A stretch of DNA of 64,000 nucleotides from Alphaproteobacteria bacterium (GCA_965228895.1 OZ245842.1:192001-256000), one strand, 5' to 3'; counted from the stretch's first letter, positions 14,089-57,268 are shown. Made by a program: numbers and translations. The notes: a model not told the origin generated them from the sequence alone.

Positions 14089-15063
14089 ATGCTGAAGTTC
14101 TATGCCGTTGACGGCGAAACCCTCCGGGTGAGTGATTTTCCGGGTGGCTCCGTCGCGCCGGAAGGCCCGATCTGGTTCGATCTGCTCAATCCGACTCACG
14201 ATGAGCGCGATACGGTTGCTGCCGCCGTCAATGCGCCGGTTCCGACACGCGAGGAGATGGAGGAGATCGAGGTCTCAAGCCGGCTTCGCGACGATGACGG
14301 TGTGCTCTATCTGACCGCCACCGTCATCAGCGGCGCCGACACCCAGGATGTCAGCAGCAGCGCCATCACCTTCATGGTGGCGAACCACCGATTGGTCACC
14401 ATCCGTTATCAGGACCCCAAGCCGTTCTCCGTGGTGTCCGACAGGCTATCGCGCCTGCATGCGGCAAGTCTTTCAGGCGAACTGATCCTGATTACCTTGC
14501 TGGATGCGGTCATCGACCGACTGGCCGATGTTCTCGAACGCCAGGGCGCCGACATCGAGGCGATCTCGCGCGATATCTTTCACTATGACAGCGACGGCAA
14601 GCCGGAGGGTCATGAGTTCGATGACCTGATCCGGCGTATCGGCAGGGCCGGCGATATGACGGCGCGGGTCCGCGAAAGTCTGGTCAGTATCGCGCGCCTG
14701 CTGCTCTTCGTTATCAACAGCCCGCAGGTGCGCGGCAAGCATGTCGGGCGCGAGCGGTTCAAGACCTTGCACCGCGACGTGACGTCACTGGCCGACCACG
14801 CGACGTTCCTGGCCAACAAGACGAACTTCCTGCTCGACGCGACGCTCGGCATGATCAACATCGAGCAGACGGGCATCATCAAGATCTTTTCGGTCGCCGC
14901 CGTCGTGCTGCTGCCGCCAACCGTGATCGCGTCGATCTACGGCATGAACTTCGAGGTCATGCCGGAGCTCGACTGGGATTTCGGCTATCCCTTCGCGCTC
15001 CTGCTGATGGTGATTTCCGCCGTGCTCCCCTACCTCTGGTTCAAGCGCAAGGGTTGGCTCTAG
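14089..15063 (+). CDS. corA: CorA Mg2+/Co2+ transporter
   Basis: YGMNF signature, MPEL.W..GYP, C-terminal FKRKGWL. Confidence 0.96.
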   Translation: MLKFYAVDGETLRVSDFPGGSVAPEGPIWFDLLNPTHDERDTVAAAVNAPVPTREEMEEIEVSSRLRDDDGVLYLTATVISGADTQDVSSSAITFMVANHRLVTIRYQDPKPFSVVSDRLSRLHAASLSGELILITLLDAVIDRLADVLERQGADIEAISRDIFHYDSDGKPEGHEFDDLIRRIGRAGDMTARVRESLVSIARLLLFVINSPQVRGKHVGRERFKTLHRDVTSLADHATFLANKTNFLLDATLGMINIEQTGIIKIFSVAAVVLLPPTVIASIYGMNFEVMPELDWDFGYPFALLLMVISAVLPYLWFKRKGWL

Positions 15064-15199
15064 AGCAGATCCTGTTTTGATGGATTCGCTTCGCGATGAC
15101 ATCAAGACAGGTGAATCCGCTCTACTCATCGATAAAGAGCGGATTCACATGGTTAGATGGGACCCTCAAGCGGTCCCATCTAACCATGATCCGCTCTAG
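15060..15199 (+). repeat. 140-bp CTAG-bounded palindromic dispersed element (MITE/BRU-RS-like), copy 1
   Basis: CTAGAGCAGATC...GATCCGCTCTAG ends; perfect 17-bp internal stem CATGGTTAGATGGGACC/GGTCCCATCTAACCATG; gapless alignment to 29087-29226 and 57129-57268. Confidence 0.93.
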
Positions 15200-15205
15200 G
15201 CTTGT

Positions 15206-15880
15206 TCAGCCGCGCAGTTCCCAGGCGCGGTTCAAGAGGTCGTGCATGGGGCCGCGCCGGTGGCCAATCTTGTCGAGCGACGCCACGGTCTTGATCAGAT
15301 AATCGATGCACGGTCCGGCCGGGCCCTCGGCCAGGGCGATATGACGCGCCACGTCCTCGTCGTCGAGGCGGCCGGCATAACGTTCCATCTGCGGGTTGAT
15401 GGTAAAGACGATGGCCTGGACCGCGCCCTCATGGGTCTCCGCGTCAACCCAGCGCGGAATGTACGCATTGGACAACATTTCGCGGCGCCATACCCGGTCG
15501 GTTGCCTGTTCGATGTTCTCCGGCGCGATCGCCAGGGCCATGCCACGGCACGAGCCGCCGGGTTCCAGGCCCAGCATCAGGCCCGGTCGTTCCGGTGTGC
15601 CGCGGCCCAGGACGGTCCACAGACAGAAACGCCGGTGCCAGCCACGCACCAGGGCGGCGCGTGTTTCGGCGACGGTAAAATCGGGGTTCCACATCAAGGA
15701 GCCGTAACCGAACACCCAGACCGGTTCTCCCGGCTTGGCCGATCTCAAGAGGTCATGACGGGTTGCATCACGCTCCTCATCGCCCATCAAGTCGATGAGG
15801 CCGTCGTCAGAGGCCCGCTGAATGATCTCCGCAATCTCGGGCGTCCAGTAGTGGTCCGGGTTGATACGTTGCCGGGACAT
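15206..15880 (-). CDS. chaC: ChaC-family gamma-glutamylcyclotransferase
   Basis: VWVFGYGSLMW, RGTPERPG..LGL..GGSCRG, WRREM. Confidence 0.92.
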   Translation of the reverse strand: MSRQRINPDHYWTPEIAEIIQRASDDGLIDLMGDEERDATRHDLLRSAKPGEPVWVFGYGSLMWNPDFTVAETRAALVRGWHRRFCLWTVLGRGTPERPGLMLGLEPGGSCRGMALAIAPENIEQATDRVWRREMLSNAYIPRWVDAETHEGAVQAIVFTINPQMERYAGRLDDEDVARHIALAEGPAGPCIDYLIKTVASLDKIGHRRGPMHDLLNRAWELRG

Positions 15881-15887
15881 GCTGCGT

Positions 15888-17378
15888 CTAAACCTCGATC
15901 GCGTCGAAGGGATAGAGCGGGCGGCGGATGTTCTTGAACGTCAGCCGGCTCGAATCGGGCGAGGCCAACGCGCCGGAATCGCAGACAATGACCTTGTCGG
16001 CGATCGGTTCGTAGGCGGCGCGGAAATGCTGCATCGACTTCAGCGCCACCGTACGCTTCTCGCGTGGGTCGATCCCATTCGTCAGGAACTGCTGCATATC
16101 GGTGATTTGGATGAGATTGGTGACGACCAGAACATCGATGCCGCCGACCCGCAACACAGCGCTGGGACCGAAGTGCTTGGTCATGCCCGCCCACATCGGT
16201 CCGTCGCAAATGTATGTGCCGTCGCCGGTGTGCACGACGCTGCCTGTAAGTTCCAAGGGCGGACCACCAAAACGGGGGTCGACCTTGCCGCCGACGTCCA
16301 ACGTCACCGTGGCGCCAGGGCCAGCCTGAACCAGGGCGGCGGCCGCCTCGCCGTCACGCACGGCGCCGAAGCAGGCATCCTGTAATCGGGCATCCAGCAT
16401 CGCCTTGAGCAAATTCGTCGCATCGCCATAGGCGCCGGCGCCGGGATTGTCGGCGTAATCAGCGATGACCAGCGGCTTGCCGTTGTAGTTGTGCTGGCGC
16501 GCGATGTCGGCGGCTTGGCCAGACGTCAGATAGGTGTTGGTGACCTCGTCGCGACGTTGCCAGATGTCGTCCATCAACGCTTCGGCCATCGCCTGATAGC
16601 GCGGATCGTCGCCGTCGCCGGTCACCAAGACCGTGGGGCCGACGTCGAAAATGTCGGAGTGATGGAAGCCCGCGTTGATCGATGTGTTGAGCACGCCCGC
16701 CTCCGCCTCGAAGCCGCGCGCCTTGGCTTGCAGGTCGATCATCGGTCCGGCATCGGTGCGCCCGCCGTCGGCGCCTTCGAACAACGGGCGGCGCGCCAGG
16801 AACGTCCTGGGCCGGATCTCGCCGGCCATGGCGCGTTGCAGCAGGTCACCCGCCTGGCGACCACGTTCGGCCATGTCGATATGCGGATAGGTCTTATAGC
16901 TGCACACGATGTTGGCGAGGTCGGCCACATCCGGCCCGACATTGGCATGCAGGTCGAAGGTGACGGCGACCGGGATGTCGTTGCCGATGATGGCGCGCAC
17001 GCGTTTCAGGAGTTCGGTTTCCGCGTCCTCGTAGCTCTCGGTCACCATGGCGCCATGCAGGGCGAGCAGCACGCCGTCGACATCGCGATTGGCCTCAAGC
17101 CTATCGAGGATCAAACCGCCAAGTTCTTCGAAAGCGTCGTCCGTCACCTTGCCGCACGGGTTGGCGAAGGCGGCGACGGTATGGATGAGCTCCCAGTCAT
17201 GGGCCTCGGCCGCGGCTATGAAACCGGCAGTCTCGCTGTTGGTGCCGGTCATCTCCCGAACGATTTCCTCGGCGCCGCGAAAGCAGAACATCTTTTCGAA
17301 GGCCGGAATGTCGGCGGGTTGGACCGAAAAGGTGTTGGTCTCGTGCATGAGCTGGCCGGCCAGCACGCGAAACTTCAT
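15888..17378 (-). CDS. M81 family (MlrC-like) metallopeptidase
   Basis: HETNTFS, LHGAM, DLHAN, YPH.D, ADNPG.G..GD, KS.QHF. Confidence 0.92.
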   Translation of the reverse strand: MKFRVLAGQLMHETNTFSVQPADIPAFEKMFCFRGAEEIVREMTGTNSETAGFIAAAEAHDWELIHTVAAFANPCGKVTDDAFEELGGLILDRLEANRDVDGVLLALHGAMVTESYEDAETELLKRVRAIIGNDIPVAVTFDLHANVGPDVADLANIVCSYKTYPHIDMAERGRQAGDLLQRAMAGEIRPRTFLARRPLFEGADGGRTDAGPMIDLQAKARGFEAEAGVLNTSINAGFHHSDIFDVGPTVLVTGDGDDPRYQAMAEALMDDIWQRRDEVTNTYLTSGQAADIARQHNYNGKPLVIADYADNPGAGAYGDATNLLKAMLDARLQDACFGAVRDGEAAAALVQAGPGATVTLDVGGKVDPRFGGPPLELTGSVVHTGDGTYICDGPMWAGMTKHFGPSAVLRVGGIDVLVVTNLIQITDMQQFLTNGIDPREKRTVALKSMQHFRAAYEPIADKVIVCDSGALASPDSSRLTFKNIRRPLYPFDAIEV

Positions 17379-17387
17379 CAACTTCTC

Positions 17388-18299
17388 CTAACTGCTCTTG
17401 AGACTGCGCCAGTATTCGCGGGCGAACGCGGCATAACCGGGGATCAGCGCTTCATGCCGTGGTGCGATCTTGTGATAGGCGGCCGCCAGCGCATGGAACG
17501 GCACCGACGGAAACGTGTGATGCTCGGTATGATGGGGCATCTGCCAGGAGAGCCAACGTATCACGCCGTTGGTTTTCATGGTGCGGGTGTTCGCCAGCAT
17601 GTCGGCGGTGAATGGCAGCAGCGTGTGCTCGGCGAGCAGGTAGAACCTGAGAAACGGCATGCCGAGTACCAGCGGCAGCACCCAATAGAGGATCGGCGCC
17701 CATGAACCGGCGCTGATGGCGACCAGCGCGATGACGGCGTAGCCGGCGAGGAACAGCCGTGATTCGTGGATAACCGACTGCTTGCCGTCGTCGGGAATGT
17801 AGGGCTCGGTGACCCTGCCCAACGCGTGGCTCACGACGACCTTCGCCATCACCCACCAATAGCTTTTTATTCCCGTCAGATACCAGAGCAGTGCGCCGCG
17901 CGTGCGTGGCTTCGGCTCGCCGAGTTCCGGATCCTTGCCCTCGATCTGGGTTTCCCGATGGTGCTCGAAATGGAAGAACCTGAAGTAGGCAGGCGGCAGC
18001 ATGATGGCGAAACCGAAGACATAGGCGACCGTCTCGTTCAGCCAGCGGGACTTGAACGCCGTGCGGTGGATAACCTCGTGCAGCGGACAAAACAGAAAGG
18101 CGAGCAGGATGCCATGAATGATCATGGCGGGGACTAGAAGCCACCAGTAGGGCATCACCCACCAGATCAGCGTGCCCGTCACCAGGATGGCGAGCAGATG
18201 GCTGAACAACTGCGCCAGACCTTTCGCATCCGAACGCTCCGACAGCCGGCGCACGTCGGTGAACGAGCAGATGTCACGCCTGGCGATAAATCCTTCCAT
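17388..18299 (-). CDS. membrane fatty-acid-desaturase superfamily protein (MocD-like)
   Basis: His boxes HEVIH, FHFEHH, HTEHH plus LAEH; ATG 18299 after GAGGAG. Confidence 0.88.
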   Translation of the reverse strand: MEGFIARRDICSFTDVRRLSERSDAKGLAQLFSHLLAILVTGTLIWWVMPYWWLLVPAMIIHGILLAFLFCPLHEVIHRTAFKSRWLNETVAYVFGFAIMLPPAYFRFFHFEHHRETQIEGKDPELGEPKPRTRGALLWYLTGIKSYWWVMAKVVVSHALGRVTEPYIPDDGKQSVIHESRLFLAGYAVIALVAISAGSWAPILYWVLPLVLGMPFLRFYLLAEHTLLPFTADMLANTRTMKTNGVIRWLSWQMPHHTEHHTFPSVPFHALAAAYHKIAPRHEALIPGYAAFAREYWRSLKSS

Positions 18300-18435
18300 G
18301 TCTCCTCGGGTCAATGCGATCGGGGGCGCTATCCTGCGACGGCCCGCGCGGCCGTTCAATGACGATGACCCCATGACCCGTCCGGAGAGACGGCGTATCG
18401 TTCTGGCCCTGTGAACGCACGGAAGGGAGAGCGTC

Positions 18436-20220
18436 ATGGCCGAACGCCGCATAAAGCCGGAAGACCTGCGTAGCCGTCACTGGTTCGACGACCCCGATCA
18501 TCCGGACTCCGTCGCCATCCATGTCGAGCGTTACCTGAACTACGGCCTGACCCGCGAGGAACTGCAGTCGGGCCGGCCGATCATTGGGATCGCCCAGACC
18601 GGCAGCGATCTGTCGCCGTGCAACCGTCACCATGTGCAGCTCGCCGCGCGCGTACGCGACGGCATCCGCGATGCCGGCGGCGTGCCATTCGAGTTTCCCG
18701 TGCACCCGATCCAGGAGACGGGCAGACGTCCGACCGCGATGCTCGACCGCAACCTCGCCTACCTCGGTCTGGTCGAGATCCTGCACGGCTATCCGTTCGA
18801 CGGCGTGGTGCTGACCATTGGTTGCGACAAAACCACGCCGGCGGCGCTGATGGCCGCCGCCACGGTCGACCTTCCGGCCATCGCGCTCTCAGGCGGGCCG
18901 ATGCTGGATGCCTGGTGGGAGGGGCAGCTTGCCGGCTCCGGTATGGTGAAGTGGGAGGCCCGGAAACTGCTCGCGACCGGCGCGATCGACTATGACGGCT
19001 TCATCGACCGCGCCTGTCAGGCGGCGTCCTCGGCCGGCCACTGCAACACCATGGGTACGGCGCTCACCATGAACAGCCTGACCGAGGTGCTGGGCCTGTC
19101 GCTGCCCGGATGCGCGGCAATCCCGGCGCCCTATGCCGCCCGCGGCGCCATCGCCTATCTGACCGGCCGGCGCATTGTCGACATGGTGTGGGAAGATTTG
19201 AAACCCAGTGACATCCTGTCGCGTGGCTCGTTTCTGAACGCGATCCGCGTCAATGCCGCGATTGGCGGGTCGACCAACGCGCCTATCCATCTGCAGGCGA
19301 TCGCCCGTCATGCCGGTATCGAGCTGGAACTCAAGGATTGGGAAACCTACGGCTACGACATTCCGCTGCTGGTCGACTGCCAGCCGGCCGGCCGCTATCT
19401 GGGTGAAGCCTATAACCGCGCCGGCGGCGTGCCCGTGGTGGCAAAGGCTTTGGATGAAGAGGGCCTGATCGACCGTGATGCCCTGACCGTCACGGGCACG
19501 ACGCTCGCGGACAACGTGGCGGGCGCAGCGGCGCCCGACGGCGACGTCATCCGCGCGTTTGCCAACCCTTTGAAGGAGAAGGCGGGATTTTTGGTGCTCT
19601 CCGGCAACCTGTTTGACGCGGCGATCATGAAGACGTCGGTCATCTCAGACGACTTCCGCCGCGCCTATCTGGAAGTGCCCGGCCACGAGAACCGCATCGA
19701 AGGCAAGGCTGTGGTGTTCGATGGCGCCGAAGATTATCGCGCGCGCATCAACGATCCGGCGCTAGAGATCGACAAGCATTCGATCCTGGTGGTGCGTGGC
19801 GCCGGGCCGGTCGGGCATCCCGGTGCGGCAGAGGTCGTCAACATGCAGCCGCCTGATCGCTTAATCCGGGACGGCATCCGCGAGTTGCCGACCATCGGCG
19901 ACGGCCGCCAGTCGGGCACCAGCAACGCGCCGTCAATTCTGAACGCGTCGCCAGAGTCAGCGGTGGGCGGTGGCTTGGCGATGCTCCAGACCGGCGACCC
20001 TCTGGTCATCGACCTGGATGAACGCACCGCCAATGCGGACGTGCCGACCGAGGAGTGGGAGAAACGCAAAACCGAGATGGCGTTCGAGGTGCCGGAAAGC
20101 CAGACGCCGTGGCAGGAGCTTTTCCGAGAAAAGGTCGGGCCGCTCAGCACCGGCATGTGTTTCGACTTCGCCGTCGCCTACGACAAGGTGCGGCGTCACC
20201 TGCCGCGCAACTCCCATTAA
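18436..20220 (+). CDS. IlvD/Edd family sugar-acid dehydratase (xylonate/arabinonate type)
   Basis: SPCN.HH, GCDKTTPA, GHCNTMGTA, GGSTNA, GDGRQSGTS. Confidence 0.92.
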   Translation: MAERRIKPEDLRSRHWFDDPDHPDSVAIHVERYLNYGLTREELQSGRPIIGIAQTGSDLSPCNRHHVQLAARVRDGIRDAGGVPFEFPVHPIQETGRRPTAMLDRNLAYLGLVEILHGYPFDGVVLTIGCDKTTPAALMAAATVDLPAIALSGGPMLDAWWEGQLAGSGMVKWEARKLLATGAIDYDGFIDRACQAASSAGHCNTMGTALTMNSLTEVLGLSLPGCAAIPAPYAARGAIAYLTGRRIVDMVWEDLKPSDILSRGSFLNAIRVNAAIGGSTNAPIHLQAIARHAGIELELKDWETYGYDIPLLVDCQPAGRYLGEAYNRAGGVPVVAKALDEEGLIDRDALTVTGTTLADNVAGAAAPDGDVIRAFANPLKEKAGFLVLSGNLFDAAIMKTSVISDDFRRAYLEVPGHENRIEGKAVVFDGAEDYRARINDPALEIDKHSILVVRGAGPVGHPGAAEVVNMQPPDRLIRDGIRELPTIGDGRQSGTSNAPSILNASPESAVGGGLAMLQTGDPLVIDLDERTANADVPTEEWEKRKTEMAFEVPESQTPWQELFREKVGPLSTGMCFDFAVAYDKVRRHLPRNSH

Positions 20221-20275
20221 TGCCTCCAAGGCTGTGCCACGGCACTGGCCGGGCGATGCGACCAAACAAACGCTG

Positions 20276-21580
20276 CTAGAACGCGTTGATGCTGACCGTC
20301 GAGCAGGGGACGCCGGGGAAGCGACTCAGCGCTTCGTGTTTGAGGCCTATCGAGACGGCCAGCAGGTAGAGGCTTCGCGTGAAGGCGTGTTGTTGGGCAG
20401 TAGCAATGGTGTAGGCATCCGCGCCGTCGCCGGACGCCGATGCGGCGACCAGGATGTTGACGACGTCCATGGGATCGGGCCGGCCGTTCGCATCGTCGCT
20501 GATCAGACGAAGCGCCAAACCCACGTCGTGGCAGGCGATTAGCGGCGCGATATCCGGCCGGGCGAGGCCGCCGTCCAGGTGCGGTCCGGCATCATAACTC
20601 TCCAGCGCCGCGCGCGCGGCAGCGGTATCGCCCAGCATCGCATATCCTTGGGCGAGCCTCAGATGCGCTGCCGGGTTGCCCGCCGCGCCATCGCCGTTTT
20701 CCAGGGCTTCAGCCGCCGCGCGTAAGATCGCGCGGGCGCGGGCCTCGTCGCCTTGCCGTCGATAGGCATCGGCCAGCGATATCCGACCCAGCAGAGGCAG
20801 CCAGCCGGGCAAATCGTCGGCAAGGGTCGCCGTCATGTCGTGGTCGCCGGCCGCGGCGATGCCTTCGACCATGGCAAGCCGGGCGAAGGCCGCATCCGTC
20901 TCGGTCAGGCTGGCGGCCGCCACTTCCGCATCGTCGCTGTAGCCGGCGGCGGCCCACATGGCGAAGAGTGAGCCAAGCTGACGTGTGCGTTCCCACATGT
21001 CGCCTTCCATATCGTTGTGCACGATGTCCCAGGCGAGCGCGAACATGGCGCGCGCGCGTTCATCGTCACCGGTCTGGGCCAGCATGCGTGCTGAAACGAT
21101 CAAGGCGTCCGTCCGGATCTCCAGATCGCTGATCGCCAGGGCATCGGGCAGAGCGGCCGTGTCATCGGCAGAGAGAGGATCGGTGGAGAGCCATGACGAG
21201 GACCGGTAGAGGCCATCGGTCGGGTTGCCCCACAGCGCATAGGCGTCGCCTTCGGTTTCCTGAAGCCAGCCGGCAATCGACTGGAACGCGGCGTCCGGCT
21301 GACCGACCGCCGACTGAAAGCGGGGCATCAGGAAGAACGGCGCGAAGGCTTCCGACGTCAGATTGCCACCGGCCGCCAGTTCGTCCTGATAGGCGAGCAG
21401 GCTCTCGTTGAAGTCGATCCAGACCCTGCATGCCAACCCGCTCACCTCGACGCCCTGGCATAAAACGAACTGGCCGCCGGTGAGGCTATCGGCACCGGTT
21501 TCCTGAGCCTGCGTTGATGCCGGCGCGGTGGCCAACCAGACGAAGAACGCGACGAACAGGACCAAGCCGGGACGCCTCAT
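20276..21580 (-). CDS. secreted alpha-helical repeat (TPR-like) hypothetical protein
   Basis: signal peptide ending AQA; Ala/Leu-rich helical repeats (GD...ARA..); fills the gap between divergent genes. Confidence 0.65.
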   Translation of the reverse strand: MRRPGLVLFVAFFVWLATAPASTQAQETGADSLTGGQFVLCQGVEVSGLACRVWIDFNESLLAYQDELAAGGNLTSEAFAPFFLMPRFQSAVGQPDAAFQSIAGWLQETEGDAYALWGNPTDGLYRSSSWLSTDPLSADDTAALPDALAISDLEIRTDALIVSARMLAQTGDDERARAMFALAWDIVHNDMEGDMWERTRQLGSLFAMWAAAGYSDDAEVAAASLTETDAAFARLAMVEGIAAAGDHDMTATLADDLPGWLPLLGRISLADAYRRQGDEARARAILRAAAEALENGDGAAGNPAAHLRLAQGYAMLGDTAAARAALESYDAGPHLDGGLARPDIAPLIACHDVGLALRLISDDANGRPDPMDVVNILVAASASGDGADAYTIATAQQHAFTRSLYLLAVSIGLKHEALSRFPGVPCSTVSINAF

Positions 21581-21603
21581 GACAGGTCAGGCCGCACGCA
21601 GAC

Positions 21604-22518
21604 TTGAGTGCGCCTTCTGTGTTCGGCTACAAGCGCCATGTGCCCGATCTCTCCCCACCCAGCTACCCGGATATTCGCTTGTCCACCTTATCAGGCTTCG
21701 TCTGGCCCGAGGGCAAGTCATGCGGCGTGACGATCGGCTGGCATGTGGATGGCGAGGCGGGGCCGATTGGTTGGGACCGTGGCGCGGTCGAGCACGTGAC
21801 GGCCATGTCCGAGGCAGCGTATGGCATCACCACCGCCATGCCGCGCATCCTCGCGCTGCACCGGGATCTTGAGATCCCGGCGACGTTCTTTGTGCCGGCC
21901 CACGTCGCCGAGCGCCATCCCGCGATGATCGATGCGATCCTGGCCGGCGGTCATGAGATCGCCCATCACGGCTACATGCACGAGAACCTGTTCGGCATGG
22001 CGGCCGAGGACCAGCGCGCGGTGTTCGCCCGTGCCACAGAGGTTCTGGAGCGTCTAACGGGTCGCGCGCCGCGCGGCTGGAGCGCGCCGGGCTGGGGTGT
22101 CGATGCGCGTACGCTGGAGATGATGGCCGAACTGGGTTTCGCCTATGACGCCAGCCTTATGGAGTATGACGTCCCGCATCTGGTCGAAACGGCCAAGGGT
22201 CCGCTGATCGAGCTGCCGACCAGCCTGGTGCTGGACGATTGGGCGCTCTTCGGCGGGTCGCTTTATCCGACCGGCAGCGCTGTCACGGCGCCCGCCGAGG
22301 ACGCGCGGCGCATCTGGCTGGAGGAGTTCGTGGGTCTGCGCCGCTATGGCGGTCTGTTCCACACCACCTTTCATCCCAACCTGATGGGACGGCCCGGACG
22401 CCTGGTCATGCTGGAGCAGCTCTTCACCGAGATGCGGGCCTACGATGACGTGTGGTGGGGCACCTGCGAAGTGGCTGCCGACCATGCGTCGACCTTCGCG
22501 GTGGGGGGGCGGTTGTGA
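21604..22518 (+). CDS. polysaccharide deacetylase (CE4, PgdA/PuuE-like) family protein
   Basis: WPEG..C.V....D, ATFFVP, GHEIAHHGYMHE, FHP..MGRPGR; TTG start uncertain. Confidence 0.85.
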   Translation: MSAPSVFGYKRHVPDLSPPSYPDIRLSTLSGFVWPEGKSCGVTIGWHVDGEAGPIGWDRGAVEHVTAMSEAAYGITTAMPRILALHRDLEIPATFFVPAHVAERHPAMIDAILAGGHEIAHHGYMHENLFGMAAEDQRAVFARATEVLERLTGRAPRGWSAPGWGVDARTLEMMAELGFAYDASLMEYDVPHLVETAKGPLIELPTSLVLDDWALFGGSLYPTGSAVTAPAEDARRIWLEEFVGLRRYGGLFHTTFHPNLMGRPGRLVMLEQLFTEMRAYDDVWWGTCEVAADHASTFAVGGRL

Positions 22519-22976
22519 GCGACTCACCCATCGATGGCCTCGTCGACTTTCTGGTCGAGGCGCGCCGCCAGACCTATGCCATCCCCCACGGCGAGAAGCT
22601 GGCCGACGGCACCGAGCAGATGGTTTGGGATCGCGGCATCTGGTCCTACCGCGACCGGTACGCCGGCCAAAACCCTTATGGCGGACATGAGCTCGTCTGG
22701 TGTGACGGCCGCGTCGTCTGGATGAAGAACTACATGGCGACCGTCCTGACCGACCATCCGCCGATGGGCGAGATCTATGCGTTCCAGCGCACGGTCCTTG
22801 GCGACCCCGACCCCGATCACCTGATGCGCGGACCGGCGTCATACGTCGAAGGGCCCTTCGTCTATCGCAACACGGTCGACGGTGACATCTTCCAGTTCAG
22901 CGGCGTCGAGACGATCAGCCACGACGGTATCGACGTCTACCGGATGATCTTCCACGGCGGCTTGATCGGAACCTGA
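22515..22976 (+). CDS. DUF5680-like protein
   Basis: FL.EA...TYA, YRD.Y.G...GG.E.V....VW..NY, RGP..Y, Y...FHGG; GTGA overlap with upstream stop. Confidence 0.7.
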   Translation: MSDSPIDGLVDFLVEARRQTYAIPHGEKLADGTEQMVWDRGIWSYRDRYAGQNPYGGHELVWCDGRVVWMKNYMATVLTDHPPMGEIYAFQRTVLGDPDPDHLMRGPASYVEGPFVYRNTVDGDIFQFSGVETISHDGIDVYRMIFHGGLIGT

Positions 22977-22985
22977 AGAGCGCCG

Positions 22986-23879
22986 CTAGGAAAACCGGTC
23001 GTCGACAATCGTCTCCACTGCCACTTGCTGAGCGATCAATCCGAATCGGGCATAGGTCGCGATGTTCTCCCGCCAACGTTCCCGATTGATGAGGCAAGCC
23101 TGCTCCGGTCCTTTTCGGCCGAACACGAGCGGCGCCATCATGTCGAGCACCCGGCGGTTCTCGGCGACATCGGGTCGCCCGACGCAAGTCTCCGCAATCA
23201 AGGCGGCTGCCTCGTTTCGTTGGGCCAGAGCCTGCCGCCACCCCTCGGCGGTCGCCGCCAGGAATCGCCGCAGAACACCGCCATGCGTTTCCAAACACGC
23301 GGCTGTCGTGACGATTACCTGCGACTGCGGGACGAGCGAGGGATGGCGCAGCGGTATCAGGCGTGGTCGATAGCCCTGCCGCTCCAGGGCGACGGCCTCG
23401 GTGATCGCGTAACCCTGCACCGCGTCGAAACGCCCGGCTATCAGGTCGTCCAGCGACCAGCCGGTGACGGTGACGTCGACAGCATCGATGTCAACGCCAT
23501 GGAGGCGCAACAGGATGCGCAGCAGGTGCTCGCCGTCACGGTGCATGGCGATGCGGTAGCCCGCGAGATCGCCGATGGCCTCGATCCCGCTTTTGCCTTT
23601 GGTCATCAAGACCAAGGGCGTTTCCTGCAGCATGGCACCGATCGCGCGCGCGGGCTTGCCATCGGCGCCGTGCTTGACCACGAGATTGTCTTCGCAGCAG
23701 CCGGCCGAGCACGGGTCGTCGGCAATCAAGTCGAGAACGGAACGCTCGGGGTGGCGGTCCGGGGCGACCAGATCGACATCCAGACCGGCAGCGCGATAAA
23801 GACCGTGACCGCGTGCCCAGACCGGACCGGCGAACTGGCAGTCCAATCGCCAATCCAAATAGAAACGGAAAGGGGTCAC
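22986..23879 (-). CDS. NMT1/THI5-like substrate-binding-fold protein, no signal peptide
   Basis: LDW....QFAG...A...GLY...GLDV, DL.G.RIA, L.AG..DA..GY...E, FL.AT.EGW. Confidence 0.8.
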   Translation of the reverse strand: MTPFRFYLDWRLDCQFAGPVWARGHGLYRAAGLDVDLVAPDRHPERSVLDLIADDPCSAGCCEDNLVVKHGADGKPARAIGAMLQETPLVLMTKGKSGIEAIGDLAGYRIAMHRDGEHLLRILLRLHGVDIDAVDVTVTGWSLDDLIAGRFDAVQGYAITEAVALERQGYRPRLIPLRHPSLVPQSQVIVTTAACLETHGGVLRRFLAATAEGWRQALAQRNEAAALIAETCVGRPDVAENRRVLDMMAPLVFGRKGPEQACLINRERWRENIATYARFGLIAQQVAVETIVDDRFS

Positions 23880-23888
23880 GGCTGCCGT

Positions 23889-24254
23889 TCAGCCATCAAC
23901 CCGCTCGAAGTAGACACCGAGAAACTCAAAGTCGTCGGACGGCTGGTGAAAGTAATCCAGGTGATCGGCGCGAAACGCCTCCAGGCCGACCGTGCCCGAG
24001 ACGGCGGGGTCGCGCCGCCACAGCCGCTCGGGTATGGCGTCCCAGCGGACCAGTTCAATGCCTGTCAGGCGCACACGACACCGCGTCGTGCCGTCGCGGT
24101 CGACAACGTCATAGGTGGCGCCGACGTGGAGCGCGGTGTTGTCCGCATCAAGCCCCTCACTCCATGCGACAAACCGTACGGTCGCCGTCTTGCTGCCGTC
24201 GATGATCTGGTCGATCAGTTCCGATTGGAACCACTGCATGCGATGGGCGGTTAT
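23889..24254 (-). CDS. ASCH (PUA-like) domain protein
   Basis: F..ELIDQIIDGSKTATVR (GxKxxTxR); C-terminal part of track ORF 23889..25019; start ATA 24254 (optimal RBS spacing) or ATG 24239. Confidence 0.8.
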   Translation of the reverse strand: MTAHRMQWFQSELIDQIIDGSKTATVRFVAWSEGLDADNTALHVGATYDVVDRDGTTRCRVRLTGIELVRWDAIPERLWRRDPAVSGTVGLEAFRADHLDYFHQPSDDFEFLGVYFERVDG

Positions 24255-24265
24255 GGTTTGGCTCC

Positions 24266-26515: not shown

Positions 26516-26988
26516 TCTCCCCCAAGCGCCACCGTGCGCCGTTTGCCGAGCGTATCGTCTGCCAAGCGTGCAACAGCCCAACGATGAGCCTCATCGCTCA
26601 ATGCCGCTGTCGCATCATCAAGGTTGAGCCATAGACACGCATGGTCGTGTTCTACCGGTTGACCGCCGTGATCCTCGACCGTGGCCACAAAGTAGGATCC
26701 CGTCTTGTTGAGCCACGCTTGGCCGTCACGGCTGACGATCAACTGATTGGCGTGGCACAGCAGACTTGCGGTTACAACGACAAGGCCGGTTTCTTCAGCG
26801 ACTTCGCGGCGCATGGCTTGTTCTGGTTCTTCTCCTGGGTCGATGCCGCCGCCTGGCAGCATGACACATTCCGGCGTTTCGCAGATCAGCAGACGGCCTT
26901 GCGCATCGCGCAACAGGCCATAGGCGCTGGGCCGTGTCCGAACCTTGCTGCCCTTTGGTGCCGTGCCGAATTGCGGGACGCCCGTCAT
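26512..26988 (-). CDS. NUDIX hydrolase
   Basis: Nudix box GGGIDPGEEPEQAMRREVAEETG. Confidence 0.88.
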   Translation of the reverse strand: MTGVPQFGTAPKGSKVRTRPSAYGLLRDAQGRLLICETPECVMLPGGGIDPGEEPEQAMRREVAEETGLVVVTASLLCHANQLIVSRDGQAWLNKTGSYFVATVEDHGGQPVEHDHACLWLNLDDATAALSDEAHRWAVARLADDTLGKRRTVALGGE

Positions 26989-27086
26989 GGCGACAACCTA
27001 GCCGATGCCAGGCATTCATAAGAACCCCTCACGTCTGCCATGAGGAATCCATAGCTTGCCCCAATTTGGGAAATCTCTAAACCAGC

Positions 27087-28289: not shown

Positions 28290-28294
28290 CCAGC

Positions 28295-29077: not shown

Positions 29078-29086
29078 AGCGTTCTC

Positions 29087-29226
29087 CCGGAGCAGATCCT
29101 GGTTTGATGGAATCGCTTTGCGATTCCATTAAGGCAGATGAATCTGCTCTATTCATAGATAGAGAGCGGATTCACATGGTTAGGTGGAACCGCTTAACGG
29201 TTCCACCTAACCATGACCCGCTCTAG
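29087..29226 (+). repeat. 140-bp palindromic dispersed element, copy 2
   Basis: CCGGAGCAGATC...GACCCGCTCTAG; perfect 18-bp stem CATGGTTAGGTGGAACCG/CGGTTCCACCTAACCATG; 24 and 17 mismatches to copies 1 and 3. Confidence 0.93.
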
Positions 29227-29277
29227 GCGTTAGGGTCTATATTGGCGTGACCGGCACGAGACAAAAGGGGCAGGCGC

Positions 29278-30914: not shown

Positions 30915-30927
30915 GCAGCCAGGTCCC

Positions 30928-31004
30928 GAGCAATTCCCAAAGGGTTGGGAATTGCTCCGATCATTTGATGTAGAGCGGATTCACGCGATGTGATCGATCC
31001 GCTT
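30928..31004. repeat. short/degenerate relative of the 140-bp element
   Basis: 13-bp perfect stem GAGCAATTCCCAA/TTGGGAATTGCTC, spacer, then TAGAGCGGATTCAC...GATCCGCT containing the element's third module and part of the fourth. Confidence 0.65.
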
Positions 31005-31014
31005 TGTGGGTCGG

Positions 31015-32076
31015 TCACATCGCGATCCGCATTACGTGCGGCGGATCGGCTTGAAGCGCTTCGCGGATCAAGCGCTGGAAAAAGATGGTGCCGGGCTCCT
31101 TTTCTGGCGACAGCTTGCCGGATTGGTAGATCCCGGCCTCCAGGTTCATCTGCACCTTCAGACAAACGCCCATGTCTTCGTGCATGATGGCAATCGAATC
31201 CTCGATGTACGTTCGGCCATAGGCTTCCTCGCCTTCCGGGAACCAGTACCAGGAACGGATGGTCAAAGCGCCGGCACGATCCGGTTCGACCTGCTCGATA
31301 TTCAGCGCGCGGTCGGAATAGTGCAGCAGCAGCCCGGGGAACTTGTAGATCCACAAACCCTTGTTGGCGCGCGTGTCGGATTCGCCGCCATAGTCGACGT
31401 GAAAACCGACAAAACCGCCGTTCTCGTACGGCCGGATCTCGGCGCCCGACACCGCCTTGTTGAGCGCGCCGTGGACGAAGGGCAGGTGGTAACCCTCGCA
31501 CGAGTTGTCGCCGTACGCCTTCCAGTCGCAGGCGCCGTCCACGCTTGTCTTATCCAGGAAGACGAAGCTCTTTGCCGCCGGGTAGTCGTCGGCCAGGCGC
31601 CCGACATCGCCCATCCAGGCGGCGAGGTCCGGCGCAGCCTCTTCCAGGCAGACAAAGACAAGGCCTCGCCAAGTTTCGACGCGCACGGGGAAAAGCCCGA
31701 ACTTCGATTTGTCGAGGGCGCCGGACTCGGGAAACCCCGGCGCCGTTCTCAGACTGCCGTCGAAACCGTAGATCCAACCATGGTACTGGCAGCGCAACGC
31801 CTGGGAGCGTCCGCCGTCGTCCGTGAAAAGCGGTCCGGCGCGATGGCGGCAGACATTGTGGAAGGCGCGCAAGCCACCCTCGCGATCACGCACCACAAAG
31901 ACCGGCCAGCCCGTCACGTTGGCGGTGACATAGTCGCCTGCCTGCGCCAATTGTTGCTCGCGGCCAACCAGCCACCAATTGCGCGCGAAGATCATCTGGC
32001 GCTCGCGCTCAAACTGATCGGCGTCGTGATACCAGGCAGCGGGCAGGGTATCGGTCAGGATTTGTGGTGCGGCCAT
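31015..32076 (-). CDS. Rieske non-heme iron oxygenase alpha subunit (choline monooxygenase-like)
   Basis: CRH...CQYH Rieske motif; WK...DN..EGYH...H and ED mononuclear Fe ligands. Confidence 0.92.
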   Translation of the reverse strand: MAAPQILTDTLPAAWYHDADQFERERQMIFARNWWLVGREQQLAQAGDYVTANVTGWPVFVVRDREGGLRAFHNVCRHRAGPLFTDDGGRSQALRCQYHGWIYGFDGSLRTAPGFPESGALDKSKFGLFPVRVETWRGLVFVCLEEAAPDLAAWMGDVGRLADDYPAAKSFVFLDKTSVDGACDWKAYGDNSCEGYHLPFVHGALNKAVSGAEIRPYENGGFVGFHVDYGGESDTRANKGLWIYKFPGLLLHYSDRALNIEQVEPDRAGALTIRSWYWFPEGEEAYGRTYIEDSIAIMHEDMGVCLKVQMNLEAGIYQSGKLSPEKEPGTIFFQRLIREALQADPPHVMRIAM

Positions 32077-51618: not shown

Positions 51619-51630
51619 GCGCCAAAGCGC

Positions 51631-54523: not shown

Positions 54524-55048
54524 ATGGTGGATCAGACAGCAGGCGCGCAAGGCGAGACCCGGCGCGATTTCCTCTATGTGGCGACCGGCGCCGTGGCCGG
54601 CGTCGGTGCGCTGGCTACGCTCTGGCCACTGATCGATCAGATGAACCCGGCGGAAGACGTGCTCGCCTTAAGCTCGACCGAGGTCGATTTGTCGCAAGTT
54701 CCCGTCGGTCAGCAGATCGTCGTGAGCTGGCGCAGCAAACCAGTTTTCATCCGCCATCGTACAGAAGAAGACATTGCCGAAGCCGAAGCGGTTCCGTTGG
54801 AGGAGCTGAAAGACCCACAGACTGACGACGACCGCGTGCTCAAGCCCGAATGGCTGATCATGGTGGGCATCTGCACCCATCTTGGCTGCATTCCCTTGGC
54901 CGACCAGGGTGAATATGACGGCTGGTTTTGCCCTTGCCACGGTTCGCACTACGACACGTCCGGGCGGATCCGCAAAGGACCGGCGCCGTTGAACCTGACG
55001 GTTCCAACTTATGAGTTTCTCGACGATACCACCGTGCGTATCGGGTAA
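54524..55048 (+). CDS. petA: cytochrome bc1 Rieske Fe-S subunit
   Basis: Tat motif RRDFL, CTHLGC, CPCHGS. Confidence 0.97.
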
Positions 55049-55060
55049 GCGGGGCGCGAG

Positions 55061-56326
55061 ATGAACGGATTGATGAATATTGCCTTCGTGCGCTGGTTCG
55101 ACAGCCGGCTACCGATCTTCTCTTACGTCAACGAGCATCTGGTCGAGTACCCGGCGCCGCGCAACCTGAACTATGCGTGGAGCTTCGGATCGCTGGCCGG
55201 CATCGCGCTGGTCATTCAGATCATCACGGGCATCGTGCTCGCCATGCATTACATCCCGAACACCGAGATGGCGTTTGACAGCGTCGAGCGCATCATGCGC
55301 GACGTGAACTATGGCTGGCTGCTGCGCTACGTTCATGCCAACGGCGCGTCGCTGTTCTTCGTTGTCGTCTATATCCACATCTTCCGCGGTCTCTATTACG
55401 GCTCCTATAAGGCGCCACGCGAGGTGCTGTGGTGGTTGGGCATCATCATTCTGCTCTTGATGATGGCAACCGCGTTCATGGGTTATGTGCTGCCGTGGGG
55501 CCAGATGAGCTTCTGGGGCGCGACCGTGATCACCAACCTGTTCTCGGCCATCCCCTGGATCGGACCAGGCATCGTCGAATGGCTGTGGGGCGGTTTCGCG
55601 GTCGGCAACCCGACGCTGACCCGCTTCTACAGTCTCCACTATCTCCTGCCGTTCGTGATCGTCGGTGTGGTGTTCCTGCATCTGTGGGCCCTGCACCACA
55701 AGAAGTCGAACAATCCGCTGGGAATCGACTACAAGGGCCCGCAGGACTTCATCCCGTTCCACCCGTACTACACGATCAAGGACGCTGTGGGCTTGGGCGT
55801 CTTCCTGATCGTCTTCGCGGCCTTCGTTTTCTATGCGCCGAACTACATGGGCCATCCGGATAACTACATCCCGGCCGATCCGCTGGTGACGCCCGCCCAT
55901 ATCGTGCCGGAGTGGTACTTCCTGCCGTTCTACGCGATCCTGCGCGCGGTGCCGGATATCTGGTTCATCGACGCCAAGCTTGGCGGTGTCATCGCCATGT
56001 TCGCGTCGATCCTGATCCTGCTCATAATCCCCTGGCTCGATACATCGCGGGTGCGCTCGTCGACGTTCCGGCCGGTCTACAAGTGGTTCTTCCTGTTGCT
56101 GCTGATCGATGTGCTGGTGCTGGGCTATGTCGGCGCCAAACCGGCGGAAGGTTGGTGGCTGGTAGCGGGTCGTATCGCGACCACCTACTACTTCCTGCAC
56201 TTCATCATTGTGATGCCGCTGATCGGTTGGTTCGAACGGCCCAGGCAGATGCCCGACAGCATCGCCACGCCGGTGCTGGGTGGCGGTGCGCCGCTCGCGG
56301 CGGCCGCGCCGCGTGACAAGGCTTGA
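55061..56326 (+). CDS. petB: cytochrome b
   Basis: heme His motifs, [15 protein letters not shown]. Confidence 0.98.
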
Positions 56327-56337
56327 GGGAGGCGACC

Positions 56338-57090
56338 ATGAAAAAGCTACTCGTCACGGCCGCGCTCTCTTTCGCCCTTGTCACATCATCGGCTGCCATG
56401 GCGGCCGAGCTGGTTTCCCCGCCTGAACGCACGTGGTCGTTCCAGGGTATCTTCGGAACCTATGACAAGAGCGAGCTGCAGCGCGGCATGCAGATCTATC
56501 TGGAGGTCTGCTCAAGCTGCCACGGGCTAAAGTACGTCCGTTTCCGCAATTTGGAGGCGCTTGGCTTCAACGAAGATCAGGTCAAGGCGATCGCGTCCGG
56601 CTTCGAGGTCGAGGACGGACCGAACGTCGACGGCGACATGTTCTTCCGTCCGGCGCTGCCCAGCGATGCGTTCCCGTCGCCGTTCCCGAACGCGGAGGCC
56701 GCACGCGCTGCCAATGGCGGGGCCTTGCCGCCCGACCTGTCGCTGCAAGCCAAGCGCAATAAGTACGGCGCCGATTACATCGCGGCGCTGCTGAGCGGGT
56801 ATGACGGCAGTGATCCGACCGATGACGGTCTTTATCACAACGAATATTTTGCTGGTGGTCTAATCGCCATGGCGCCGCCGCTGGGCGACGATTACGTCAC
56901 CTATGCCGACGGCACCGAGGCAACGCTGGAACAGCAATCACAGGACGTCGCGGCGTTCCTGATGTGGGCGGCTGAGCCCAAGCTTGAGGATCGCAAGTCC
57001 ATGGGTATCAAGGTCCTGTTGTTCCTGCTGATCCTGACCGGCTTGTTCTACGTCTCGAAGCGCAAGATCTGGGCAAAGCTCCATCACTGA
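56338..57090 (+). CDS. petC: cytochrome c1
   Basis: signal peptide, CSSCH, PPDLS, IAMAPP, C-terminal TM; ATG 56338 after GGAGG. Confidence 0.97.
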   Translation: MKKLLVTAALSFALVTSSAAMAAELVSPPERTWSFQGIFGTYDKSELQRGMQIYLEVCSSCHGLKYVRFRNLEALGFNEDQVKAIASGFEVEDGPNVDGDMFFRPALPSDAFPSPFPNAEAARAANGGALPPDLSLQAKRNKYGADYIAALLSGYDGSDPTDDGLYHNEYFAGGLIAMAPPLGDDYVTYADGTEATLEQQSQDVAAFLMWAAEPKLEDRKSMGIKVLLFLLILTGLFYVSKRKIWAKLHH

Positions 57091-57132
57091 GTTGACCGCG
57101 CGTCCGGTTGATCCGACCGGGTCATGCTCTAG
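57088..57132 (-). repeat. short hairpin element sharing its CTAG with copy 3
   Basis: minus strand CTAGAGCATGACCCGGTCGGATCAACCGG...GGTCAACTCA; GAGC-type terminus and an imperfect stem. Confidence 0.45.
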
Positions 57133-57268
57133 AGCAGATCCTGTTTTGGTGGAATCACTTTGCGATTCCGTCAATGCAGGTGAATCTGCTCTACTCAAAA
57201 ATGGAGAGCGGATTCACATGGTTAGGTGGAACCGTCAAACGGTTCCACCTAACCATGATCCGCTCTAG
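57129..57268 (+). repeat. 140-bp palindromic dispersed element, copy 3
   Basis: CTAGAGCAGATC...GATCCGCTCTAG; perfect 19-bp stem CATGGTTAGGTGGAACCGT/ACGGTTCCACCTAACCATG. Confidence 0.93.

What the first reader, a model, noticed from the sequence alone, without database searches (positions are those of the whole stretch)
15060..57268. Dispersed 140-bp CTAG-bounded palindromic element family (3 full copies, no transposase in the window)
Seen: three intergenic copies (15060-15199, 29087-29226, 57129-57268), all exactly 140 bp and in the same orientation. They align without gaps with 24, 21 and 17 mismatches (83-88% identity) and have 12-bp imperfect terminal inverted repeats CTAGAGCAGATC...GATCCGCTCTAG (copy 2: CCGG at the left end, one further change at the right). 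Established knowledge: alphaproteobacteria carry small TAGAGC...GCTCTA palindromic elements such as Brucella BRU-RS1/2, whose mobilisation and function are poorly understood. Inference: this is a non-autonomous mobile or selected structured element; three copies in 64 kb would suggest many more genome-wide. I do not recognise the internal sequence as a described family.
Basis: partly seen in the sequence, partly recalled or inferred. Interest (0 to 1): 0.8.

Follow-up and report, generated by a model that had tools for sequence, protein, structure and literature searches.

The report
Twin-hairpin miniature transposon (MITE) family
The three 140-base repeats are copies of a small non-coding mobile DNA element, scattered about 128 times through this marine bacterium's genome, that inserts at TA inside CTAG-like sites; it is real and recently mobile but a fairly ordinary kind of element, and the enzyme that moves it was not found.

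Summary
There are three 140-bp copies at the stated coordinates, all on the + strand, with 24, 21 and 17 mismatches.

They belong to a family with 128 loci in the 5.53-Mb genome: 91 near-full and 37 partial.

Each copy is TA + 136 bp + TA. The 136 bp is an inverted pair of about 64-bp hairpin units joined by an 11-nt linker, with four copies of a conserved box, TAGAGCRGAT.

The ends read Y-TA-[GAGC...GCTC]-TA-R, that is, a TA duplication at a YTAR or CTAG target.

All three window copies are missing from the orthologous sites of two sister species. For copy 3 the empty site is a single CTAG or TTAG. In the reverse test, of 39 sister-species copies 23 are missing in this genome and 3 are shared. 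Copy 1 has a twin 2.1 Mb away with 1 mismatch in 140 and unrelated flanks.

No transposase with matching ends was found. No Y1/RAYT gene was found in 5 genomes.

Verdict: a MITE, closest in architecture to the CIR repeats of Caulobacter and Brucella (PMC2229807). This scan already reached the same reading on other windows of this genome and in one other genome. It is a new member of a known kind, of modest interest.

The parts
15060..15199 (+). Copy 1, full twin-hairpin element. Its left TAG (15061-15063) is the stop codon of the upstream CorA-like gene (14089-15063). A ChaC-like gene on the minus strand ends 7 bp to the right.
   Evidence: Absent at the orthologous site of G001 and G002. G001 keeps the CTC-TAG stop without the element. 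A twin with 1 mismatch in 140 and unrelated flanks lies at G000 2337068-2337207.
29087..29226 (+). Copy 2, full element with a decayed left end (CCGG instead of CTAG). It fills most of the divergent spacer between a DUF427 gene (start codon 10 bp to the left) and an arginase-family gene (start 52 bp to the right).
   Evidence: Absent in G001 and G002, where the flanks are 3 bp apart.
57129..57268 (+). Copy 3, full element, the window copy with the best nhmmer score (161.8 bits), 38 bp downstream of the cytochrome c1 gene.
   Evidence: The empty orthologous site is a single CTAG in G002 and TTAG in G001. It is also absent in the other genus, G003.
57130..57193 (+). Left hairpin unit of copy 3: TA, outer box GAGCAGATC, a variable stem-loop with GAATC beside the loop, inner box GTGAATCTGCTC, TA.
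57194..57204 (.). Linker of 11 nt between the two units.
   Evidence: a linker of 10-12 nt recurs in other genomes.
57205..57267 (+). Right hairpin unit of copy 3: inner box AGAGCGGATTCAC, a variable stem-loop, outer box GATCCGCTC, TA. It is an inverted, diverged copy of the left unit.
   Evidence: (cross-matches between halves and strands).
30928..31034 (+). Fourth, degenerate member of a different subfamily: a shortened left palindrome GAGC...GCTC, a linker, then a right unit with TAGAGCGGATTCAC, a 9-bp stem and a decayed GATCCGC end. It was missed by the family HMM.
   Evidence: (solo box at G000 222971 = window 30971).

Best explanation
The repeats are copies of a non-autonomous miniature inverted-repeat transposable element (MITE). 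The mobile unit is 136 bp, GAGC...GCTC. It consists of two diverged copies of a ~64-bp hairpin unit placed head to head, joined by an 11-nt linker. There are four copies of the box TAGAGCRGAT: two at the outer ends (GATC type) and two at the inner ends (GATTCAC type, which carries a GANTC site and a 3-nt bulge).

Shown: it inserts at TA inside a YTAR, mostly CTAG, target and duplicates the TA. Because TAG and TAA are stop codons, it often lands on the last codon of a gene and re-supplies the stop. Insertions occurred after this species split from its congeners, and at least some are very recent.

Inferred, not shown: movement is by a DDE-type cut- or copy-and-paste transposase supplied in trans. 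Candidates are an IS630/Tc1-mariner-like enzyme or an IS5/IS427-like enzyme such as IS711, both known for TA duplication at CTAG/YTAR. This enzyme would recognise the conserved boxes. The stems co-vary because only copies that keep the palindromic design propagate. The complete genome encodes no recognisable cognate enzyme, so it was either lost, is carried by a transient element, or belongs to an untested family.

Copies decay by deletion across the repeats, leaving single units and 20-bp fused-end remnants.
For: Copy number and dispersal: 128 loci, 91 near-full (51 on +, 40 on -).

Ends: among 91 copies, position 1 is Y in 84, positions 2-3 are TA in 82-84, position 4 is G in 87, position 137 is C in 90, positions 138-139 are TA in 77, and position 140 is R in 82. 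The end pairs CTAG/CTAA (11 copies) and TTAG/CTAG (9 copies) exclude a 4-bp duplication.

Empty sites: all 3 window copies are absent in G001 and G002, and the copy 3 site is a single CTAG or TTAG. Of 39 G001/G002 copies, 23 have adjoining flanks in G000 without the element, 3 are occupied and 13 are unresolved. Clean cases L141, L148 and L163 show a single CTAG.

Recent activity: two pairs with 1 mismatch in 140 have flanks 25-37% identical.

Location: 120 of 128 loci are intergenic by crude ORF calls. In 39 of 91 full copies a flanking TAG or TAA is the stop codon of the neighbouring gene.

Orientation is unrelated to replication direction (47 versus 44).

No Rfam family matched.

No Y1_Tnp gene in 0 of 5 genomes.

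TA duplication at YTAR is documented for IS711 (passages of PMC2266754 and PMC3163539). TA-flanked MITEs such as RUP, Correia and ERIC are summarised in PMC2229807.

An IS5/IS427-type IS flanked by CTAG exists in the sister genus (L174 1730-2602).
Against: No autonomous partner was found. In G000 no pair of boxes 40-4000 bp apart encloses a transposase gene. G000 has no DDE_Tnp_1 or DDE_Tnp_1_2 match and only one broken DDE_3 fragment without matching ends. Its only multi-copy IS is an IS3-family element with unrelated ends. The IS5-like and IS630-like genes of G001-G003 lack the boxes.

A DDE transposase needs only the terminal boxes. Yet the inner boxes, the 3-nt bulge, the hairpin pairing and a GANTC beside one loop are conserved across genomes whose stem sequences differ completely. 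The simple MITE model does not explain this.

Near-identity between copies could in part reflect gene conversion rather than recent transposition.

The second strain laid (X2, about 0.6% divergent) carries copies 1 and 2, so no strain-level polymorphism was seen at these two sites.
Confidence: 0.8

Rival explanations
1. The elements move as folded single-stranded hairpins through an HUH/Y1 enzyme (a REPIN-RAYT or IS200/IS605-like system) or another structure-specific enzyme that has not been recognised. In that case the TA pair would be a shared cleavage or crossover site rather than a staggered-cut duplication.
For: The stems co-vary strongly. There are 297 double compensatory cells versus 71 +/- 6 in shuffles, and 254 broken pairs versus 577 +/- 9. 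Between genera, 22 of 58 pairs show changes on both sides. A 3-nt bulge sits at a fixed place, and the box R/Y co-varies within each unit. No DDE partner was found.
Against: Y1_Tnp matched in 0 of 5 genomes, while the same search matched in 6 of 14 control genomes. The element has two-fold symmetry, so both strands look alike. It is inserted in both orientations with no replication-strand bias (47 versus 44). The net gain of TA at empty sites fits staggered cuts.
Confidence: 0.07
2. The family is kept mainly because the host uses it, as CcrM methylation (GANTC) landmarks or as RNA structures that shape mRNA ends. This is the idea raised for CIR repeats. Mobility would then be secondary.
For: GANTC is 11 times denser in the elements than in the genome: 302 of 9,511 sites lie in 0.28% of the DNA. 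It sits at fixed places, model positions 24, 54 and 83 in 57, 80 and 81 of 91 copies. In public units from other genomes, 38 of 92 interiors carry a GANTC versus 12 +/- 3 in shuffles, and 32 of those lie 6 nt before the hairpin centre. Many copies abut gene ends.
Against: Positions are not conserved between sister species: 3 of 39 are shared, and 0 of the 3 window copies. Orientation relative to genes is only weakly biased (31 versus 16 in tandem spacers, 35 versus 28 next to 3' ends). Spacer types are used roughly in proportion to their length. No Rfam family matched.
Confidence: 0.08
3. Insertion is by a site-specific (serine-type) recombinase that exchanges strands at a TA crossover dinucleotide in a CTAG core, so TA flanks the element without true duplication.
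For: The TA-flanked, palindromic 4-bp core and the insertion in both orientations are compatible with this.
Against: No recombinase gene was linked to any copy. There are 128 dispersed sites that share only YTAR. This explanation was not tested further.
Confidence: 0.03

Closest known systems
CIR (Caulobacter CcrM-associated intergenic repeats, CIR1-4, of Caulobacter, Brucella and other Alphaproteobacteria; Chen and Shapiro 2003, as summarised in passages of Delihas 2008, PMC2229807)
   Same: Both are alphaproteobacterial and strictly or mostly intergenic. Both have two long inverted repeats that form two arms joined by a linker, TA at the termini, and a conserved GANTC at or beside the terminal loop of one arm. 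Neither has an ORF.
   Different: The size is 140 bp here against about 110 bp for CIR. Here GANTC also sits in both inner boxes. For CIR, a target-site duplication and mobility were listed as unknown; here empty sites and a TA duplication at YTAR are shown. Sequence homology could not be tested because the primary paper (PMC166474) is not held. The exact central module occurs in only 3 of 401 sampled genomes of the class.
RUP of Streptococcus pneumoniae, Correia/NEMIS of Neisseria and ERIC of enterobacteria (MITEs with TA at the termini; Table 1 of PMC2229807)
   Same: All are small (100-200 bp), non-coding, highly base-paired, TA-flanked, multi-copy elements presumed to be moved in trans.
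   Different: Those are single foldback elements whose 5' and 3' ends pair with each other. This one folds as two independent arms. RUP has a matching IS630-Spn1, whereas no matching IS was found here.
IS711 of Brucella (IS5 family; passages of PMC2266754 and PMC3163539), and IS630, for which CTAG targeting is recalled and comes from no call
   Same: The target consensus is YTAR or CTAG, with duplication of the central TA.
   Different: These are autonomous insertion sequences (IS711 is 842 bp). Their ends could not be compared here. The IS5/IS427-like IS found in the sister genus has unrelated ends.
Bru-RS1 and Bru-RS2 of Brucella (Halling and Bricker 1994; seen only as citations and passages)
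   Same: They are palindromic intergenic repeats of 103-106 bp in an alphaproteobacterium and are hot spots for an IS that targets YTAR.
   Different: They come from a different order of bacteria.
REPIN/REP elements with RAYT transposases (description recalled, from no call)
   Same: Both show an inverted doublet of short palindromic units with compensatory changes in the stems.
   Different: No RAYT/Y1 gene was found in 5 genomes. This element shows a TA duplication and a YTAR target, and its units are about 64 bp rather than about 25 bp.

Membership tests
MITE (miniature inverted-repeat transposable element) | Small, non-coding, multi-copy and dispersed | tested here: met
   The element is 140 bp and occurs at 128 loci on both strands. 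The three window copies lie between annotated genes.
MITE (miniature inverted-repeat transposable element) | Terminal inverted repeats | tested here: met
   The outer boxes GAGCRGATC...GATCYGCTC are conserved in 73-91 of 91 copies per position, 80 or more at all but position 131.
MITE (miniature inverted-repeat transposable element) | Target-site duplication | tested here: met
   TA occurs on both sides (77-84 of 91 copies). Empty sites hold a single TA within CTAG or TTAG.
MITE (miniature inverted-repeat transposable element) | Presence/absence polymorphism at orthologous sites | tested here: met
   All 3 window copies are absent in two congeners. Of 39 congener copies, 23 are absent in G000, 3 are shared and 13 are unresolved.
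MITE (miniature inverted-repeat transposable element) | A related autonomous IS with the same ends | tested here: not met
   None was found in G000 or in the transposase loci of G001-G003 and G010. Only three DDE Pfam families and one Y1 family were screened.
CIR repeats | Two stem-loop arms joined by a linker, with TA at the termini, in intergenic positions | tested here: met
   the CIR description comes from PMC2229807.
CIR repeats | Conserved GANTC at or beside the terminal loop of one arm | tested here: met
   GAATC is at model position 24 in 57 of 91 copies. In public units, 32 of 92 have a GANTC 6 nt before the hairpin centre.
CIR repeats | Sequence homology to CIR1-CIR4 | not testable with these tools
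   The primary paper is not held and no CIR sequence appears in the papers I read.
Bru-RS1/Bru-RS2 | Sequence homology to the 103- and 105-bp Brucella repeats | not testable with these tools
   No Bru-RS sequence appears in the passages read.
REP/REPIN-RAYT system | A RAYT (Y1_Tnp) gene in the genome | tested here: not met
   PF01797 matched in 0 of 5 genomes but in 6 of 14 control genomes.
REP/REPIN-RAYT system | Insertion without target duplication | tested here: not met
   A TA duplication is seen at empty sites.
IS630-derived MITE (RUP-like) | Ends similar to a resident IS630-family element | tested here: not met
   G000 has only a broken DDE_3 fragment, and G003 has one DDE_3 gene. Neither has the boxes.
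Any Rfam RNA family | A score at or above the family's gathering threshold | tested here: not met
   There were 0 matches in the 64-kb window. Around copy 3 only miRNA-like hairpin hits of 21-25 bits appeared, against thresholds of 88-100.

The most novel reading that the evidence does not exclude
The element is not an ordinary DDE-moved MITE. Four features are conserved across genomes whose stem sequences are unrelated: the four boxes, a fixed 3-nt bulge, obligatory stem pairing, and GANTC sites at the inner boxes and beside one loop. The element has moved recently in a complete genome that has no recognisable cognate transposase. This would fit a structure-reading mobilisation enzyme that has not been described. 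It would also fit control of transposition by CcrM methylation: the methylated GANTC would silence the inner ends so that the doublet moves as one piece, and would tie movement to passage of the replication fork, as Dam does for IS10. That would also give a function to the long-unexplained GANTC of CIR repeats.
Probability: 0.12. Interest if true: 0.7.

Novelty: new member of a known kind. Interest (0 to 1): 0.33.

Why it matters
The family is a clean, well-documented case of a TA-duplicating, stop-codon-seeking MITE in marine Alphaproteobacteria of the Kiloniellales and Rhodospirillales type.

I found no printed description of it: a full-text search for five of its box motifs returned only unrelated primer matches.

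If it is kin to the CIR repeats, it supplies what the CIR literature I could read lists as unknown, namely empty sites, the duplication and the target.

In practice it breaks short-read assemblies, because contigs of G001 and G003 start inside copies. It places a strongly structured 140 nt next to promoters and gene ends; copy 2, for example, lies 10 bp from a start codon. It also leaves open what moves it in a genome that is nearly free of insertion sequences.

Tried and rejected
Partner search.
- Box pairs 40-4000 bp apart in G000 gave 56 loose pairs, none enclosing a transposase.
- I examined the ends of the DDE_3, DDE_Tnp_1 and DDE_Tnp_1_2 loci in G000-G003 and G010 and found no boxes.
- A genome self-comparison for repeats of 400 bp or more found only an rRNA-sized repeat (a guess from its 2.9-kb size, not annotated), ABC-permease and EF-Tu duplications, tandem repeats, and one IS3-family IS with unrelated ends.
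- A gene flanked by two single units at G000 5493526-5494371 is an ordinary gene, not an IS.
- Contig starts that carry the box are assembly breaks inside MITEs, not IS ends.
- A long-gap pattern search for full-length elements was not accepted, so carriers other than G000 were not scanned for full-length IS.

Other databases and literature.
- A search of PLSDB plasmids in distant mode gave no match.
- A literature search for five box motifs gave only unrelated primers.
- The CIR primary paper is not held.
- No Bru-RS sequence was found in open papers.

RNA and strain data.
- No RNA holder is listed for the copy 3 region.
- In the contigs of four runs laid on window 12000-31900, no contig joins across either copy. 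The close strain X2 enters both elements from both sides, so no strain-level polymorphism was seen.

Readings rejected.
- A 4-bp CTAG duplication.
- Serial insertion as the origin of the 3.5-unit tandem array; its units are 96-98% identical and its junctions lie inside the element.
- A cloverleaf as the selected fold. The two-hairpin form pairs the boxes perfectly, whereas the cloverleaf forces A.C and T.G pairs.
- An oriented RNA gene.

Technical failures.
- One look-up of earlier notes failed because it used too many words.


Full report
**Observation**

The three stretches are as described. Each is exactly 140 bp and on the + strand. They align without gaps and differ by 24, 21 and 17 mismatches. 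Each folds far better than shuffled sequence: -82 to -85 kcal/mol against about -35 +/- 4, with z-scores of -11.5 to -13.7 on either strand. The window is G000:C1:192001-256000 of a single-contig genome of 5,528,408 bp with 62.4% G+C.

**Census**

A profile built from the three copies finds 271 nhmmer hits. These merge into 128 non-overlapping loci. Of them 91 are near-full (51 on +, 40 on -) and 37 are partial, mostly one half or the other. Of the 91, 57 are exactly 140 bp, and the median pairwise identity is 81%. Divergence from the consensus has a median of 10.8%. The nearest-neighbour identity has a median of 90% and reaches 99.3%.

A fourth, degenerate member of another subfamily lies in the window at about 30928-31034. 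The profile missed it.

**Anatomy**

The element is not one palindrome. It is two hairpin units of about 64 bp placed head to head and joined by an 11-nt linker.

- Each unit is bounded by an inverted pair of the box TAGAGCRGAT.
- The outer ends read GATC.
- The inner ends read GATTCAC (GTGAATC on the other arm). This adds a 3-nt bulge and a GANTC site.
- The two stem-loops are diverged copies of one another; by my own by-eye alignment of the two consensus stem-loops printed, about 27 of 41 positions agree. The profile also cross-matches the halves and strands.

RNAalifold on two window copies and seven copies from the sister genus picks the two-hairpin form. It has 58 pairs, 22 of them with changes on both sides. 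Within the genome there are 297 doubly compensated cells, against 71 +/- 6 after shuffling partners. Broken pairs number 254, against 577 +/- 9. The R/Y position of the box co-varies within each unit (A-T in the left unit, G-C in the right). The two-hairpin form therefore pairs perfectly, while the cloverleaf needs A.C and T.G pairs.

**Ends and target**

The end positions were counted across the 91 near-full copies.

| Position | Base(s) | Copies of 91 |
|---|---|---|
| 1 | C / T | 64 / 20 |
| 2-3 | TA | 82-84 |
| 4 | G | 87 |
| 137 | C | 90 |
| 138-139 | TA | 77 |
| 140 | G / A | 63 / 19 |

The structure is therefore Y-TA-[136 bp]-TA-R. The end combinations CTAG/CTAA (11 copies) and TTAG/CTAG (9 copies) exclude a 4-bp duplication.

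**Mobility**

All three window copies are missing at the orthologous sites of both congeners.

- Copy 3: G002 reads ...CATGCT-CTAG-AGTGTGCC... and G001 has TTAG at the same place. G000 has the same flanks with the element between two TAs. The site is also empty in the other genus, G003.
- Copy 2: the flanks are 3 bp apart in both congeners.
- Copy 1: G001 keeps the CTC-TAG stop of the CorA-like gene without the element.

For the reverse test I fetched 40 copies from G001 and G002 with 500-bp flanks. One locus, L150, holds two copies and was left out of the count. Of the other 39, 23 have flanks that adjoin in G000 without the element, 3 are occupied in G000, and 13 could not be resolved. By eye, 13 of the 23 junctions show a single CTAG, TTAG or ATAG. 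One junction (L160) keeps a 13-bp end remnant, which shows loss by deletion.

Copy 1 has a twin at G000 2337068-2337207 with 1 mismatch in 140 and unrelated flanks. A second such pair also exists.

In contigs of a strain about 0.6% divergent (X2), both copies 1 and 2 are entered from both sides, so they are present there too.

**Genomic context**

By crude ORF calls (4,337 ORFs covering 83% of the genome), 120 of 128 loci are intergenic. The split is 60 in tandem spacers, 30 in divergent and 30 in convergent ones, roughly in proportion to spacer length.

In 39 of 91 full copies a flanking TAG or TAA is the stop codon of the neighbouring gene, and in 4 copies this holds on both sides. CTAG is rare in this genome: 2,891 sites against about 19,000 expected from base composition.

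Orientation is unrelated to replication direction (47 versus 44). It is only weakly related to gene direction (31 versus 16, and 35 versus 28).

None of the 58 crude ORFs in the window has a transposase domain.

**Distribution**

- The full family (85-94% identity) is present in the two other genomes of the genus, each with about 120 first-look candidates.
- A 70-74% identical version with the same architecture occurs in all three genomes of a sister genus.
- Single units occur in a third genus.
- Sixteen other families sampled gave nothing.
- The outer 12-mer occurs in 17 of 31 genomes of the family, while the reversed control pattern gives 0-3 hits per genome.
Of the 80 listed rows most are labelled Pelagibius, Denitrobaculum, Kiloniellaceae/Kiloniellales, Thalassobaculaceae or Rhodospirillales-type; the rest include unclassified Alphaproteobacteria/Proteobacteria MAGs, a MAG labelled Rhodobacterales (8 rows), other alphaproteobacterial families, and four single rows labelled Lysobacter, Herbaspirillum, Roseburia and Verrucomicrobiia.
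- In those loci the boxes, the bulge and the head-to-head doublet recur, while the stem sequences differ completely and stay paired.
- The exact central module (inner box, linker, inner box) occurs in only 3 of 401 sampled genomes of the class, so the distribution is patchy.
- G001 carries a second subfamily with different stems.

**GANTC**

Each full copy has mostly 2-4 GANTC sites. They sit at fixed places: model positions 24, 54 and 83 in 57, 80 and 81 of 91 copies. The elements hold 302 of the genome's 9,511 GANTC sites in 0.28% of its DNA.

In public units, 38 of 92 distinct interiors have a GANTC, against 12 +/- 3 after shuffling. Of these, 32 lie at the same place beside the loop.

**What moves it**

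No cognate enzyme was found.

- Y1_Tnp (RAYT, IS200/IS605) matches none of 5 genomes.
- G000 has no DDE_Tnp_1 or DDE_Tnp_1_2 match and one broken DDE_3 fragment.
- Its only multi-copy IS is an IS3-family element with TGAATAGCCCC ends.
- The transposase loci of G001-G003 lack the boxes. One of them, in G003, is an IS5/IS427-type IS flanked by CTAG, so enzymes with this target preference exist in the group.

The DDE mechanism is therefore an inference from three things: the two-fold symmetry, the TA duplication, and the YTAR/CTAG target. That target is documented for IS711 (passages of PMC2266754 and PMC3163539). I recall it for IS630, but no call supports that.

**Comparison with known families**

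Rfam has no match.

The closest description in print that I could read is the CIR family, in passages of Delihas 2008 (PMC2229807). CIR repeats are about 110 bp. They have two arms joined by a linker, TA at the termini and a GANTC at the loop of one arm. They are intergenic and occur in Caulobacter, Brucella and other Alphaproteobacteria. Their duplication and mobility are listed as unknown. The architecture matches. Sequence homology could not be tested, because the primary paper is not held. Supplements were not consulted.

Bru-RS1/2 could not be compared either.

Earlier notes of this scan, on other windows of this genome and on one other genome, reached the same MITE and twin-hairpin reading and pointed me to CIR. 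I re-derived the TA/YTAR target, the stop-codon habit, the covariation and the twin-hairpin design independently here.

**Verdict**

This is a real, recently mobile, non-autonomous element and a new member of a known kind. What remains unexplained is the strong conservation of the inner boxes, the bulge, the pairing and GANTC, together with the absence of any recognisable transposase in a complete genome.

Noticed in passing
window 30928-31034: A degenerate fourth element of a different subfamily lies between a GST-like gene and a Rieske oxygenase gene. It has a shortened left palindrome, a linker, and a right unit with a decayed end. The family profile did not detect it.
   Followed up: partly
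G000:C1:4900798-4901276 (outside the window): A tandem array of 3.5 units of 137 bp, 96-98% identical to each other, whose junctions lie inside the element. This is a local duplication rather than repeated insertion.
   Followed up: yes
G000:C1:1284294-1284315 and 5432875-5432896 (outside the window): Two 20-bp remnants in which the left and right outer boxes are fused at the shared GATCC. They look like footprints of deletion across the whole interior.
   Followed up: partly
window 29077-29087: Copy 2 ends 10 bp from the ATG of the DUF427 gene, so whatever lay upstream of that gene was displaced by 140 structured bases. The element's left CTAG has become CCGG next to the gene's GGAGAA ribosome-binding stretch.
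   Followed up: no
G000:C1:4266770-4267987 and 4288300-4289517 (outside the window): Two 100% identical, inverted copies of a 1,218-bp IS3-family element (HTH_Tnp_1 plus rve) bracket about 20 kb. This may be a composite transposon. It is the only multi-copy IS found in the genome.
   Followed up: partly
G000:C1:892350-892604 (L168 2351-2605): A truncated IS630-like (DDE_3) gene fragment with two in-frame TAG stops. It lies in a region of lower-G+C, island-like genes and has no matching element ends.
   Followed up: partly
L174 1730-2602 (G003:C236): An IS5/IS427-type insertion sequence of about 870 bp with 28-bp inverted repeats, flanked by CTAG on both sides. It has the same target habit as the MITE but unrelated ends.
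   Followed up: partly
L194-L197 (G001 contig starts) and L199-L208 (G003 contig starts): Many contigs of the draft relatives begin inside element copies, so these repeats fragment short-read assemblies. G001 also carries a second subfamily with the same boxes but different stems.
   Followed up: partly
whole genome G000: CTAG is strongly avoided (2,891 sites against about 19,000 expected). GANTC is at half its expectation (9,511). GATC is 2.5 times over expectation (47,981).
   Followed up: no
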